Position numbers and translations under genes: made by a program
Origin: Naegleria gruberi
Taxonomy: Eukaryota
Direction: 5' to 3' (one strand)
NCBI GenBank assembly: GCA_000004985.1
Contig: GG739326.1
DNA length: 1,789 nt
Notes under the pieces: generated by a model
Told to the model about the DNA's origin: nothing
The model's input: only the letters and a program-made list of their open reading frames with translations
Database searches by the model: none
Shown: positions 1 to 1,789 of the stretch, piece by piece
Layout of the letters: each line of letters begins with the position of its first letter
Numbering within the stretch: the stretch's first letter is position 1

Positions 1-15
1 ATGTAAAGATTCATT

Positions 16-294
16 TTATTCATCTGTTTGATATTTTCTCTTAAATTCTTCTTCCATTTGTTTCCATACAGCTTTATTCCATTCCTGCTGTGGTATTTCT
101 GGTTCCCTTGCTTTCACAGGGTCGTTTGTAATGGTGAGTTTTTCAGGGTTGTAATAGCTGTAGTATTTTCTTTTCTTATGATTCTTTGCCTTCCTAAATT
201 GCCTATTCATTAAATATCTAAACCAAATGAATATAGGTACAAATAGCATAAACGCAATACTACCAATAACTTGAATCCAAAATGCACCGAGCAT
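16..294 (-). CDS. Hypothetical small membrane protein (92 aa) with an N-terminal hydrophobic helix followed by a polybasic cluster and an acidic tail. Alternatively a detached C-terminal part of the upstream gene.
   Basis: 93-codon open frame, ATG at 292-294 and TAA at 16-18, which is long for ~33% GC DNA. Residues 3-25, GAFWIQVIGSIAFMLFVPIFIWF, are strongly hydrophobic and are followed immediately by RYLMNRQFRKAKNHKKRK, a positive-inside pattern. The C-terminus is acidic (QMEEEFKRKYQTDE). Codon usage matches ORF1. Weaknesses: the start lies only 26 nt after ORF1's stop, -3 is C, and there is no room for an independent promoter. The overlapping plus-strand ORF 28..213 is a poly-Phe shadow. 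Confidence 0.45.
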   Translation of the reverse strand: MLGAFWIQVIGSIAFMLFVPIFIWFRYLMNRQFRKAKNHKKRKYYSYYNPEKLTITNDPVKAREPEIPQQEWNKAVWKQMEEEFKRKYQTDE

Positions 295-320
295 GAGCTT
301 TACGTATTCAGTTGGATCTA

Positions 321-1409
321 TTAAATTATGGCTGTATTAAAACTGAGACCAATAGCAATATTCAAGATAATAGAAAAAAACGTAATCAATTTAAAAGTAA
401 CCTCGAGAACATTTGTGGTGGTATCACTGTTAATCAATATACTCTTATTGTTGATTGAATTTAGCATGGCATCCATAATTGTCAAAAAGGCTGCATATGC
501 TCCTGTTTTGAAAAAGCTTGAATTTAAAACATCTACTATTGCAGCCAATATCTTGCTATCTCTGAAATTTTGATTATGATCTGTATAGACAGTAGTGTCA
601 TTTCTACTATAGTAGGTTGGATAGATAGCAGTTGTATTTTGTTTGTCCATTCCTAACCCTGACAAAGTGTCGAAGGGAATGAGATCACTAAGAGTGGTCA
701 TAACGATTAACAAACTGATGGCAGAACCGAAAGCAACATTGTACCATGAAACAAGTGAAGTCTCTCTTTTTTGAACAAAGTCCTTCTTGTTTGTTTTGAT
801 ATCTTTCTCAAGAGTTTCGTATTTCTTTTCAACCTCTTTAATAGCTTTAAGCAGTGTTCTTTTTTCTTCCCAACCTTTTTGAGCAACTTGTGGATCAACA
901 TGCACATTCACCAACGCTTCAACATCTTCTACCAAAACATTTCCATCAATTTCCATAACACTATCATAAATCTTTTTGTAGGACTCGTCTAAATTAGCAG
1001 CACCTACTGTCCTACAAAAGTTTAGCCAAGTTGTTTCTCCATCCTCCCCAAAATAAAAATTGAAAAAAGGTGTTCTAGTAGTAACTGGAGGATCTGGTAA
1101 TTTGCTAATTACACTCTTCAATCCATAGTAGCTAGTCGCAATCAATTCAATTCTTTCTCCAACATAGGTAGTGGTGTCAATTCCTTCTAAATCACCCAAC
1201 TTATTGTCGTATTCTTCTATTTTCTTCTTATGTTCTGAAAAAAATTTCACACAGTTGTGGAAGGATGCAGAGGCAAATTTGATAAGTTTTCCTATCTTCT
1301 TCCACTTTTTGTAACGCCGAGCATAGTCGCTTGAGTTTCCTGTACGTGTCACAATACCACAACAACCTTTGTTGGTTTTCTTGCCTTTTGCTTTGTTCTG
1401 AGATGACAT
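321..1409 (-). CDS. Hypothetical membrane protein (362 aa). Cytosolic-type N-terminal region of ~218 aa with a coiled-coil segment, then two hydrophobic helices flanking a ~95-aa sequon-rich loop. Family not recognised.
   Basis: Uninterrupted 1089-nt frame in stop-codon-rich AT-rich DNA, ATG at 1407-1409 and TAA at 321-323. The context gagaATG has A at -3. Codon bias is consistent (AGA, TTG, GGT, CAA, GAA). Residues ~178-215, EEKRTLLKAIKEVEKKYETLEKDIKTNKKDF, are heptad-like and K/E-rich. Hydrophobic helix 1 spans residues ~219-245 (nt ~675-755), with core VAFGSAISLLIVMTTL. Hydrophobic helix 2 spans residues 339-362 (nt 324-395), FKLITFFSIILNIAIGLSFNTAII, and ends the protein. The antisense ORFs inside it are F/L/K-rich low-complexity shadows. 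Confidence 0.85.
   Translation of the reverse strand: MSSQNKAKGKKTNKGCCGIVTRTGNSSDYARRYKKWKKIGKLIKFASASFHNCVKFFSEHKKKIEEYDNKLGDLEGIDTTTYVGERIELIATSYYGLKSVISKLPDPPVTTRTPFFNFYFGEDGETTWLNFCRTVGAANLDESYKKIYDSVMEIDGNVLVEDVEALVNVHVDPQVAQKGWEEKRTLLKAIKEVEKKYETLEKDIKTNKKDFVQKRETSLVSWYNVAFGSAISLLIVMTTLSDLIPFDTLSGLGMDKQNTTAIYPTYYSRNDTTVYTDHNQNFRDSKILAAIVDVLNSSFFKTGAYAAFLTIMDAMLNSINNKSILINSDTTTNVLEVTFKLITFFSIILNIAIGLSFNTAII
396..674 (-). other. Inter-helix loop of ORF1 (residues ~246-338), enriched in N-x-S/T sequons and Ser/Thr/Asn.
   Basis: Four canonical sequons, N258-T-T, N270-D-T, N296-S-S and N321-K-S, fall within ~95 residues. The loop has no cysteines. It contains an amphipathic stretch, SKILAAIVDVLNSSFFKTGAYAAFLTIMDAML. 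This pattern is expected for a lumenal or extracellular loop in a eukaryotic membrane protein. Confidence 0.35.
765..878 (-). other. Predicted coiled-coil segment within ORF1 (residues ~178-215).
   Basis: K/E-rich heptad-like sequence KGWEEKRTLLKAIKEVEKKYETLEKDIKTNKKDFVQKRE with hydrophobic residues (L, I, V, Y, F) at roughly a/d spacing, immediately N-terminal to hydrophobic helix 1. Confidence 0.4.
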
Positions 1410-1445
1410 TCTCAGTCCTGTAACCTTGTGTTATTTTTTCTCGGC

Positions 1446-1461
1446 TATTAAAAGTATATTA
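1446..1461. promoter_or_regulatory. TATA-like elements (tattaaaag / tatatta).
   Basis: The plus strand reads TATTAAAAG at 1446-1454 and TATATTA at 1455-1461, each one mismatch from TATA(A/T)A(A/T)(A/G). They lie ~115-130 nt upstream of the ORF3 ATG. On the minus strand, TAATATA and TTTTAATA lie ~40-50 nt upstream of the ORF1 ATG. Such strings are common in AT-rich DNA, so this is suggestive only. Confidence 0.3.
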
Positions 1462-1547
1462 ACTTTTAAACAGAAAATAATACGGTGCGATTGAGCTCTT
1501 GAATGGTTTTGTCTGGTTGACCGTGAAACCTAATTCAATTTTTGGAT

Positions 1548-1555
1548 AAAAAAAA
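1548..1555 (+). promoter_or_regulatory. Poly(dA:dT) tract (A8) in the promoter-proximal region of ORF3.
   Basis: Eight consecutive A at 1548-1555, ~20 nt upstream of the ORF3 ATG. Poly(dA:dT) tracts are established nucleosome-excluding promoter elements in yeasts. A T6 run sits at 1434-1439 near ORF1's start. Confidence 0.3.
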
Positions 1556-1575
1556 TATTAAAGAGCACTTTCAGC

Positions 1576-1789
1576 ATGGTTAACATTCGTGATTTTGATA
1601 AACAGCCTGAAGCACGAAGTAAAGCAGCACGAAATGAAGCAACCCTAAAAGAAGAAGAGGACAACACCACACTTTATCAATGGTTCCTAGATCTTGGTAG
1701 AGCAATCCAAAATGCAGGTACAGAAGATAGTCCCTTGTCTAAATTGATGTTAGTTTCCAAAGAACAATGGTTTTTGGATGCCAAAGAAT
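1576..1789 (+). CDS. Hypothetical protein, N-terminal fragment of at least 71 codons. The ORF continues beyond the window end.
   Basis: ATG at 1576-1578 is the first ATG after an in-frame stop at 1531-1533. There is no stop through position 1788: MVNIRDFDKQPEARSKAARNEATLKEEEDNTTLYQWFLDLGRAIQNAGTEDSPLSKLMLVSKEQWFLDAKE. The context cagcATG has A at -3 and an A-rich leader. It diverges from ORF1 across a 166-bp intergenic region. Composition is hydrophilic with no hydrophobic helix. Not in the supplied ORF track, presumably because it lacks a stop within the window. Confidence 0.6.
   Translation, partial: MVNIRDFDKQPEARSKAARNEATLKEEEDNTTLYQWFLDLGRAIQNAGTEDSPLSKLMLVSKEQWFLDAKE

What the first reader, a model, noticed from the sequence alone, without database searches (positions are those of the whole stretch)
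321..1409. ORF1: unrecognised architecture (acid-free basic N-terminus with Cys-Cys, coiled coil, helix, sequon-rich loop, terminal helix).
I could not assign this combination to a known family from sequence alone. The basic N-terminus, coiled coil and paired C-terminal helices enclosing a loop with four sequons resemble organelle-shaping or tethering proteins (ER, nuclear-envelope, mitochondrial inner-membrane coiled-coil proteins). No catalytic motifs are visible. The loop lacks cysteines, which argues against Brr6/Brl1-like nuclear-envelope proteins. The absence of a C-terminal HDEL or cytosolic tail argues against SNARE or Sec20-like proteins.
Basis: seen in the sequence. Interest (0 to 1): 0.5.

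Follow-up and report, generated by a model that had tools for sequence, protein, structure and literature searches.

The report
Frameshift-truncated orphan membrane protein of Naegleria
The ORF is a real but uncharacterised membrane-protein gene found only in the amoeba Naegleria gruberi (two copies), and in this copy a one-base frameshift cuts it short, so the "terminal helix" is not the true end of the protein.

Summary
ORF1 lies on the minus strand at 321..1409 (362 aa). It is the annotated Naegleria gruberi "predicted protein" NAEGRDRAFT_54957, and the window is its whole 1789-bp scaffold.

- an acid-free basic N-terminus with Cys16-Cys17;
- about four heptads just before a hydrophobic helix;
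- a Cys-free loop with four sequons;
- a second hydrophobic helix.

Two points need correction.
- **The ORF end is an artefact.** A 78%-identical paralogue of 497 aa reads straight through it. In the window the homologous sequence continues in another frame (327..19), so one base is missing at about 326-327. Restoring it gives a 464-aa protein with a third strong membrane helix, a +9 basic juxtamembrane stretch and a charged tail.
- **The sequon count is not above chance** (P about 0.14).

No relative other than the paralogue was found in exhaustive protein searches, in Pfam, NCBIfam or PDB, or in the viral and metagenome scans. AlphaFold models were unreliable (pLDDT about 37).

My best reading is a lineage-restricted protein that crosses the membrane several times. 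It probably has four spans with both ends in the cytosol, and its N-terminus is probably lipid-anchored. Its function cannot be assigned. Interest is modest.

The parts
321..1409 (-). ORF1 as annotated: 362 aa, NAEGRDRAFT_54957 / XP_002668099.1 / D2W6E7. It is a truncated gene model.
1329..1409 (-). Residues 1-27. Acid-free polybasic N-terminus, MSSQNKAKGKKTNKGCCGIVTRTGNSS. Residues 1-20 are identical in the paralogue.
1359..1364 (-). Cys16-Cys17. Candidate dual S-acylation site (inferred, not tested).
   Evidence: Sequence; conserved in the paralogue.
885..1328 (-). Residues 28-175. Predicted all-helical, soluble (cytosolic) domain. It begins with a basic amphipathic helix at 28-56. It is the least conserved part upstream of the distal tail (67% identity to the paralogue).
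747..884 (-). Residues 176-221. Heptad-patterned stalk helix with a basic juxtamembrane end (KTNKKDFVQKRE). It is continuous with TM1.
672..746 (-). Residues 222-246. Hydrophobic segment TM1; 92% identical in the paralogue.
402..671 (-). Residues 247-336. Cys-free, N/T-rich region with sequons N258, N270, N296 and N321. It contains amphipathic helices at 286-299 and 304-321, which include the marginal fourth membrane segment at 294-312. 87% identical in the paralogue.
327..401 (-). Residues 337-361.
321..329 (-). Frameshift site. The coding strand reads ATA ATT TAA. One extra A at about 326-327 (ATA AAT TTA ATA GAT) restores I-N-L-I-D, which matches the paralogue's I-N-L-I-A.
217..297 (-). Restored residues 372-398. 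The strongest hydrophobic segment, TM3, in the shifted frame.
151..216 (-). Restored residues 399-420. Polybasic juxtamembrane tail (YLMNRQFRKAKNHKKRKYYSYY). With R398, residues 398-420 have 9 Lys/Arg and no acid. 86% identical in the paralogue.
16..150 (-). Restored residues 421-464 plus the stop codon (16-18). Charged distal tail with a predicted helix at 445-460. It has diverged from the paralogue (30% identity).
1410..1575 (.). 166-bp AT-rich spacer between ORF1 and a divergently oriented partial ORF. Presumed shared promoter region (inferred).

Best explanation
ORF1 is a genuine protein-coding gene of Naegleria gruberi. It belongs to a two-member family that was not detected in any other organism or metagenome searched.

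**The gene model is truncated.** The annotated 362-aa protein stops early because one base is missing at about window 326-327. This is either a real, recent frameshift or a base-calling error on a 1.8-kb orphan scaffold. The intact protein is about 464 aa.

**Anatomy, in order:**
1. A polybasic, acid-free N-terminus with a conserved Cys-Cys. I infer that it is S-acylated and lies against the cytosolic face of a membrane.
2. A helical cytosolic domain of about 150 residues, opening with a basic amphipathic helix.
3. A stalk helix of about four heptads that runs straight into TM1.
4. A conserved Cys-free region (247-336) containing amphipathic helices.
5. A TM2/short-loop/TM3 hairpin.
6. A +9 basic juxtamembrane stretch and a charged tail.

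**Topology (inferred).** Both ends carry strong positive charge next to hydrophobic helices. The arrangement that best obeys the positive-inside rule has four spans with both termini in the cytosol. In it the marginal helix 286-312, with conserved D293 and K301, is the second span. Only residues 247-285 and 362-371 would then face outward.

**Function (inferred, low confidence).** It is a non-enzymatic membrane-resident scaffold or oligomeric membrane protein held to the bilayer at both ends. It would self-associate through the stalk and the conserved membrane core.

**Shown:** coding status, the frameshift, the hydrophobic segments, the charge distribution, and the absence of homologues.
**Inferred:** acylation, topology, oligomerisation and function.
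For: **Identity.** 100% match to N. gruberi XP_002668099.1 on a 1789-bp contig.

**Coding status.** The paralogue XP_002670404.1 (497 aa) is 78% identical over all of ORF1. Conservation varies by region from 30% to 92%.

**Frameshift.**
- The paralogue reads ...SFNTAINLIAPNEYLKLMLGAFW....
- The window encodes NLIDPTEYVKLMLGAFW... in the adjacent frame.
- BLASTP of the restored 464-aa sequence aligns without a gap across the junction as far as residue 420.
- The two open frames overlap only at 323-339. The tail frame has 104 sense codons, and 0 of 20,000 composition shuffles stayed open that long.

**Membrane segments.** Kyte-Doolittle and Hessa-scale minima fall at 219-246, 337-361 and 372-398, with a marginal one at 294-312. 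The same pattern appears in the paralogue.

**Charge.**
- Residues 1-60 have 15 Lys/Arg against 2 Asp/Glu.
- Residues 398-420 have 9 against 0.
- The regions after TM1 and between TM2 and TM3 are net negative.

**N-terminal motif.** Residues 1-20 are identical in the paralogue, against 67% identity for the following domain.

**Secondary structure.** All-helical prediction, with helix 181-243 continuous through the stalk and TM1.

**Orphan status.** No Pfam, NCBIfam or PDB family matched, and Foldseek's best E-value was 0.73.
Against: - Function, localisation, acylation and topology are all inference. No dedicated TM, coiled-coil or palmitoylation predictor was available.
- AlphaFold confidence is very low (mean pLDDT 36.9 and 37.9), so no tertiary structure supports the model.
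- The proposed fourth span (286-312) is only marginally hydrophobic (Hessa sum 6.2 against 0.3-2.3 for the others) and carries D293 and K301. A three-span protein or a re-entrant hairpin remains possible.
- I could not obtain the paralogue's DNA. The exact nature of the indel and the dN/dS ratio were therefore not determined.
- The window copy may be a dead pseudogene.
- No expression evidence was available.
Confidence: 0.6

Rival explanations
1. The protein is a two-helix membrane protein whose helices enclose an N-glycosylated luminal loop. It would act as an organelle-shaping or tethering factor of the ER, nuclear envelope or mitochondrial inner membrane through its coiled coil.
For: - The basic N-terminus, heptad stretch, two hydrophobic helices and four sequons are present in ORF1.
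- The flanking charges around TM1 fit an N-terminus-in orientation, which places at least residues 247-285 outside.
Against: - The two-helix picture depends on a truncated ORF. The restored protein has a third strong hydrophobic helix and a +9 basic tail.
- The sequon count is at chance level, and N258 is lost in the paralogue.
- No similarity to any known shaping or tethering family was found.
- The coiled coil is only about four heptads long, which is short for a tether.
Confidence: 0.1
2. The window copy is a non-functional duplicate: a recently frameshifted pseudogene, or a low-quality or redundant assembly fragment. Only the 497-aa paralogue on the 245-kb scaffold would be the working gene.
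For: - There is a stop after residue 362 where the paralogue continues.
- The scaffold is only 1789 bp and unplaced.
- The distal tail is only 30% identical to the paralogue.
Against: - Apart from the single shift, both frames are entirely free of stops.
- Conserved regions stay at 84-92% identity, so any inactivation would be very recent.
- A sequencing error explains the data equally well.
- This rival concerns the state of this copy, not what the family does. It is compatible with the best explanation.
Confidence: 0.35
3. The protein is an oligomeric channel-like or transporter-like protein. In this reading a cytosolic helical domain and a long stalk helix feed into a small membrane helix bundle, followed by a C-terminal basic ring. 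That is analogous in layout to CorA/Mrs2, or to four-span channels with cytosolic coiled coils such as Orai.
For: - The stalk helix is continuous with a membrane helix.
- The TM2/10-residue loop/TM3 hairpin is followed by a polybasic stretch.
- Conserved charged residues D293 and K301 lie in the marginal membrane helix.
- The membrane core is the best conserved part.
- CorA chains appear among the non-significant Foldseek hits (E 4.7-8).
Against: - There is no GMN motif. The corresponding position reads S-F-N.
- No hit to any Pfam family reached significance at E<=5, CorA included, and no PDB sequence hit to CorA appeared.
- The Foldseek hits come from a model with pLDDT 37 and are not significant.
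- The layout analogy is from memory, not a test.
Confidence: 0.07
4. It is not a gene at all, only a chance open reading frame in AT-rich DNA.
For: No homologue exists outside N. gruberi, and no expression data were available.
Against: - A 362-codon ORF in 35% GC DNA is very unlikely by chance. The other two minus-strand frames carry 44 and 37 stops.
- A second genomic copy conserves the protein at 78% identity, with region-specific constraint.
Confidence: 0.02

Closest known systems
NAEGRDRAFT_53624 (XP_002670404.1, D2W003), N. gruberi predicted protein of 497 aa
   Same: The only detectable relative. It is 78% identical over ORF1 and 73% over the restored 464 aa. It has the same N-terminal motif, stalk, hydrophobic segments and basic tail.
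   Different: - Its frame is intact through TM3 and the tail.
- Its distal C-terminus is longer and divergent.
- It lacks sequons N25 and N258.
- It is also uncharacterised.
N-terminally dual-palmitoylated polybasic membrane anchors (GAP-43 type; from general knowledge)
   Same: A Cys-Cys pair sits within the first 20 residues in a basic, acid-free context. The motif is perfectly conserved between the paralogues.
   Different: - There is no sequence homology.
- Those proteins are peripheral, whereas this one also has integral membrane helices.
- Acylation was not tested.
Syntaxin-type SNAREs (N-terminal helical bundle, heptad motif and membrane anchor)
   Same: The order of elements is similar: a helical N-domain, then a heptad helix that runs directly into a hydrophobic helix with a basic juxtamembrane linker.
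   Different: - There is no hit to the Pfam SNARE or Syntaxin models.
- The heptad stretch has about 4 heptads rather than about 8.
- About 220 more residues follow TM1, including two or more further hydrophobic helices.
Four-span N-in/C-in membrane proteins (tetraspanin, MARVEL, claudin or Orai-like layouts)
   Same: If the four-span reading is right, the proteins share the number of spans, cytosolic termini and one larger outward loop.
   Different: - There is no Pfam hit.
- The C-C-G here lies in the cytosolic N-terminus, not in an extracellular loop as in tetraspanins.
- The outward loop has no cysteines.
- A 220-residue N-terminal domain is atypical.
CorA/Mrs2 magnesium channels
   Same: A long stalk helix enters the membrane, and a helix/short-loop/helix hairpin is followed by a basic C-terminus.
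   Different: - There is no GMN motif and no sequence or profile match.
- There is an extra hydrophobic helix upstream.
- The resemblance concerns layout only and is untested.

Membership tests
SNARE / syntaxin (Pfam PF05739, PF00804) | A SNARE motif of about 53 residues (16 layers with a central Q/R) detectable by the Pfam models. | tested here: not met
   hmmscan of ORF1, the restored protein and the paralogue at E<=1-5 lists no SNARE or Syntaxin model. The heptad stretch has only about 4 heptads and is preceded by Pro172.
SNARE / syntaxin | Tail-anchored: a single C-terminal membrane helix with few residues beyond it. | tested here: not met
   About 220 residues and two or three more hydrophobic segments follow TM1 in the restored protein and in the paralogue.
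Brr6/Brl1 nuclear-envelope proteins | Conserved cysteines in the luminal domain between two membrane helices. | tested here: not met
   The loop 247-336 contains no Cys. No Pfam hit.
CorA/Mrs2/Alr1 | A G-M-N motif at the end of the first of two C-terminal membrane helices, and a match to the Pfam CorA model. | tested here: not met
   TM2 ends in ...GLSFNTAI, with no GMN. No CorA model is listed and no CorA chain appears in the PDB sequence searches.
Tetraspanin | Four membrane helices with a C-C-G motif and further cysteines in the large extracellular loop. | tested here: not met
   C-C-G occurs only at residues 16-18 in the N-terminus. The loops are Cys-free. No Pfam hit.
Dual-palmitoylated polybasic N-terminal anchors (functional class, not a homology family) | Adjacent cysteines near the N-terminus in a basic, acid-free context. 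| tested here: met
   KGKKTNKGCCGIV. Residues 1-27 have 6 Lys/Arg and no Asp/Glu, and residues 1-20 are identical in the paralogue.
Dual-palmitoylated polybasic N-terminal anchors (functional class, not a homology family) | Actual thioester-linked acylation of the cysteines. | not testable with these tools
   This needs acyl-biotin exchange or metabolic labelling.
N. gruberi NAEGRDRAFT_53624/54957 pair (unnamed family) | Full-length collinear similarity that includes the N-terminal motif, stalk, hydrophobic segments and basic tail. | tested here: met
   BLASTP: 340/465 identities with 4 gap positions, after the frameshift is restored.
   The loop has 4 sequons against 2.2 expected (P=0.14). 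N258 is absent in the paralogue.

The most novel reading that the evidence does not exclude
The two N. gruberi genes found a previously undescribed family of lipid-anchored, four-span membrane proteins. These would assemble through the stalk helix and the conserved polar membrane core (D293, K301) into an oligomer, for example a channel or a membrane-domain organiser. The family would be specific to this amoeba lineage and have a fold not represented in PDB.
Probability: 0.15. Interest if true: 0.45.

Novelty: new variant of a known kind. Interest (0 to 1): 0.22.

Why it matters
**Practical point.** The deposited gene model XP_002668099.1 is truncated by a one-base frameshift. It should be merged with the downstream 92-codon ORF, or else flagged as a pseudogene. 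Any architecture or topology inferred from the 362-aa model is misleading.

**Biological point.** This is one of the many lineage-restricted Naegleria genes. About a fifth of N. fowleri ORFs have no BLASTp hit to N. gruberi genes (PMC4082629). The protein has no family, no usable structure prediction and no literature. It would become interesting only if experiments showed a specific role, such as a new channel or membrane-organiser family. Nothing found here points to a surprising mechanism or helps answer a long-standing open question.

Tried and rejected
**Family and homology searches**
- Pfam on ORF1, the tail ORF, the neighbouring ORF, the paralogue and the restored protein gave only sub-threshold matches to charged helices: SKA2, KxDL, DUF2231.
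- NCBIfam gave only noise: Tsi2 and FliH, from coiled-coil composition.
- PDB sequence and profile searches had best E-values of 0.099-0.19, to ribosomal or LLP basic helices.
- Word-indexed searches of 5.8 billion proteins, one with ORF1 and one with the two-sequence profile at E<=10, returned only the two N. gruberi proteins.
- Exhaustive phmmer over 1.84 billion representatives returned only the query's own cluster.
- Scans of IMG/VR and of JGI metagenomes (two queries) confirmed no relative.

**Structure**
- AlphaFold2 on the restored full length and on the N-terminal domain gave pLDDT 36.9 and 37.9, too low for fold assignment.
- Foldseek against PDB gave no hit with E<=0.001, and I regard the listed hits as meaningless.
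- The afdb50 library was not available.

**Other look-ups**
- I tried to fetch the genomic context and DNA of both proteins, but neither is on record in that index. The paralogue DNA, dN/dS and synteny could therefore not be examined.
- A search with the neighbouring partial ORF found nothing.
- A literature search for all accession numbers and locus tags returned zero papers. Two general literature searches turned up nothing on this protein.
- Rfam and repeat scans of the window found nothing relevant.

**Considered and rejected**
- An intron instead of a frameshift: the alignment to the paralogue loses no residue at the junction.
- A mitochondrial presequence: the N-terminus is Lys- and Gly-rich and not obviously helical. 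This is only a judgement.
- A giant-virus origin: there were no viral hits, and the GC content is host-like at 34.7%.
Full report
**1. What is at the coordinates**

The window is 1789 bp with 34.7% GC. Its only long ORF runs on the minus strand from 1409 (ATG) to 321 (the last base of the TAA stop) and encodes 362 aa. The finding did not state the strand.

The translation is 100% identical to the Naegleria gruberi "predicted protein" EFC35355.1 / XP_002668099.1 / D2W6E7 / NAEGRDRAFT_54957. That protein's contig is 1789 bp long, so the window is the entire scaffold.

**2. Checking the listed features**

Present as described:
- Residues 1-27 (MSSQNKAKGKKTNKGCCGIVTRTGNSS) have 6 Lys/Arg and no Asp/Glu. 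The first acid is D28. Cys16-Cys17 are adjacent.
- Residues 180-217 have a heptad pattern. The a/d positions read K-L-I-V-Y-L-I-N-F-K, 70% hydrophobic against 14% at other positions.
- Hydrophobic segments lie at 219-246 and 337-361.
- The 90 residues between them have no Cys and carry four sequons, at N258, N270, N296 and N321.

Needing correction:
- The sequon count is what the composition predicts. The loop has 4 against 2.2 expected (P=0.14). The maximum in any 90-aa window gives P=0.14. The whole ORF has 5 against 3.9 (P=0.35). The paralogue lacks N25 and N258.

**3. The ORF is truncated by a frameshift**

The only relative is a 497-aa N. gruberi protein, P0002 = XP_002670404.1 / NAEGRDRAFT_53624, on a 245-kb scaffold. 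It is 78% identical over the whole of ORF1.

Evidence for the shift:
- P0002 does not stop after ...SFNTAI. It continues NLIAPNEYLKLMLGAFWTQVVGSILFMLF...RILMNRQFRKAKNQKKRKYYSY....
- The window encodes the matching NLIDPTEYVKLMLGAFWIQVIGSIAFMLFVPIFIWFRYLMNRQFRKAKNHKKRKYYSYY... in the neighbouring minus-strand frame. Part of this was listed as a separate 92-aa ORF at 16..294.
- The ORF1 frame is open from 1433 to 323 and the tail frame from 339 to 18, so the shift must lie within 323-339.
- By alignment, the shift lies between codon I361 (329-327) and N362. The coding strand reads ATAATTTAATAGAT. ATAAATTTAATAGAT would give I-N-L-I-D.
- The restored 464-aa sequence aligns to the paralogue without a gap across the junction, and the two stay closely similar up to residue 420 (340/465 identities overall).
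- The tail frame has 104 sense codons, and none of 20,000 composition-preserving shuffles stayed open that long.
- An intron is excluded as the explanation, because no residue is missing at the junction.

I cannot tell whether the missing base is a real recent mutation or an error on a tiny unplaced scaffold. The paralogue's DNA was not either, because neither protein is on record in the contig index.

**4. Anatomy of the restored protein**

| Residues | Feature | Identity to paralogue |
|---|---|---|
| 1-27 | Polybasic Cys-Cys motif; residues 1-20 identical | 89% |
| 28-175 | Predicted helices, opening with a basic amphipathic helix at 28-56 | 67% |
| 176-221 | Heptad stalk ending in KTNKKDFVQKRE | 85% |
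| 222-246 | TM1 | 92% |
| 247-336 | N/T-rich, Cys-free region with helices 272-283, 286-299 and 304-321 | 87% |
| 337-361 | TM2 | 84% |
| 362-371 | Short acidic connector | 70% |
| 372-398 | TM3, the most hydrophobic segment | 74% |
| 399-420 | Basic tail; residues 398-420 have 9 Lys/Arg and no acid | 86% |
| 421-464 | Charged distal tail with a helix at 445-460 | 30% |

The strongest constraint falls on the N-terminal motif and on the stalk-to-TM2 core, which suggests these are the functional parts (inference).

**5. Topology (inference)**

There is no N-terminal signal peptide. The charges flanking TM1 are net +2 before it and net -1 after it, which puts the N-terminal domain in the cytosol. 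The +9 stretch after TM3 should also be cytosolic under the positive-inside rule (established knowledge).

Three spans cannot satisfy both conditions. A four-span model can, if helix 286-312 is the second span. That helix has a Hessa-scale sum of 6.2, against 0.3-2.3 for the three clear segments, and carries conserved D293 and K301. In that model only N258 and N270 would be exposed to the glycosylation machinery.

I applied the Hessa and Kyte-Doolittle scales from memory in a simple sliding sum. No dedicated predictor was available, so the number of spans remains open.

**6. Search for relatives and folds**

Sequence and profile searches:
- No Pfam family matched at E<=1-5 apart from sub-threshold matches to charged helices.
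- NCBIfam gave nothing real.
- PDB sequence and profile searches gave nothing below E=0.099.
- Exhaustive phmmer against 1.84 billion representatives of about 15 billion proteins returned only the query's own 50% cluster.
- The word-indexed profile search at E<=10 returned only the two N. gruberi proteins.
- Scans of the viral and metagenome contig collections confirmed no relative.

Structure:
- AlphaFold2 with the two-sequence alignment gave pLDDT 36.9 for the full length and 37.9 for the N-domain. I used only the all-helical secondary structure.
- Foldseek against PDB had a best E-value of 0.73.
- The afdb50 library was unavailable.

Literature:
- No paper in the searchable library mentions any of the identifiers.

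Context:
- N. gruberi has 15,727 predicted genes at 33.1% GC. Only 78.2% of N. fowleri ORFs have a BLASTp hit to N. gruberi genes (PMC4082629). A species-restricted gene is therefore not unusual in this genus.

**7. Most likely mechanism**

I commit to the following, with the steps marked.

Shown:
- It is a real coding gene of a two-member, N. gruberi-only family.
- The gene model is truncated by a frameshift.
- It has three clear hydrophobic helices and one marginal one.
- Both termini are basic.
- No catalytic or known domain was detected.

Inferred:
- Cys16/17 are S-acylated. Together with the polybasic stretch and the basic amphipathic helix at 28-56, they would hold the N-terminus on the cytosolic leaflet.
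- The protein spans the membrane four times, with both ends in the cytosol.
- The stalk and the conserved membrane core mediate self-association.
- The protein acts structurally, as a scaffold, organiser or possibly a channel-like oligomer, rather than enzymatically.

Confidence is high for the shown part and low for the functional part.

**8. Comparison with known families**

- **SNARE/syntaxin:** the order of elements is similar, but membership fails. There is no Pfam match, the heptad stretch is too short, and the protein is not tail-anchored.
- **Brr6/Brl1:** fails because the loop has no cysteines.
- **CorA/Mrs2:** shares a stalk helix running into the membrane and a hairpin followed by a basic end. 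Membership fails because there is no GMN motif and no profile match.
- **Tetraspanins:** fail because the C-C-G is in the wrong compartment and the loops have no cysteines.
- **GAP-43-type anchors:** the N-terminal motif fits the sequence criteria of dual-palmitoylated polybasic anchors, but acylation itself is untestable here.

**9. Verdict**

This is an uncharacterised, lineage-restricted membrane protein built from generic features. Its deposited gene model needs correction. Interest is modest (0.22), because nothing indicates a surprising mechanism and an orphan gene in Naegleria is common.

The most novel reading not excluded is a new oligomeric four-span family, which I give about 15% probability.

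Noticed in passing
window 16-294 (-), extended to 19-327 in the same frame: A separately listed 92-aa ORF is in fact the C-terminal continuation (TM3 plus the basic tail) of ORF1 in a shifted frame. The protein searches returned no separate entry for it.
   Followed up: yes
window 1576-1789 (+): A divergently oriented ORF starts at ATG 1576 (MVNIRDFDKQPEARSKAARNEATLKEEEDNTT...) and runs open to the end of the scaffold, 71 codons. It has no Pfam hit, and no database protein shares words with it. It is separated from ORF1 by a 166-bp AT-rich spacer.
   Followed up: partly
window 1-18 and 1789: The scaffold ends 15 bp after the restored gene's stop codon and inside the neighbouring ORF. It is essentially a one-gene fragment that the assembler could not place, possibly because of the 78%-identical paralogue elsewhere in the genome.
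   Followed up: no
window 1242-1328 (-), residues 28-56: DYARRYKKWKKIGKLIKFASASFHNCVKF is a strongly basic amphipathic helix rich in Trp, Phe and Tyr. It looks like an acidic-lipid-binding or calmodulin-binding segment. This is only a resemblance from memory and was not tested.
   Followed up: no
window 19-150 (-), residues 421-464, against paralogue residues 419-497: Identity to the paralogue drops abruptly from about 86% to about 30% after the YYSY motif, and the paralogue is 33 residues longer. The cause could be real divergence of the tails or a gene-model problem in the paralogue, such as an unrecognised intron. It could not be checked without the paralogue's DNA.
   Followed up: no
window 531-533 and 507-509 (-), residues D293 and K301: Two charged residues inside the marginally hydrophobic helix 286-312 are invariant between the paralogues. 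If that helix spans the membrane, they would be buried polar positions, which could form an oligomer interface or a pore lining.
   Followed up: partly
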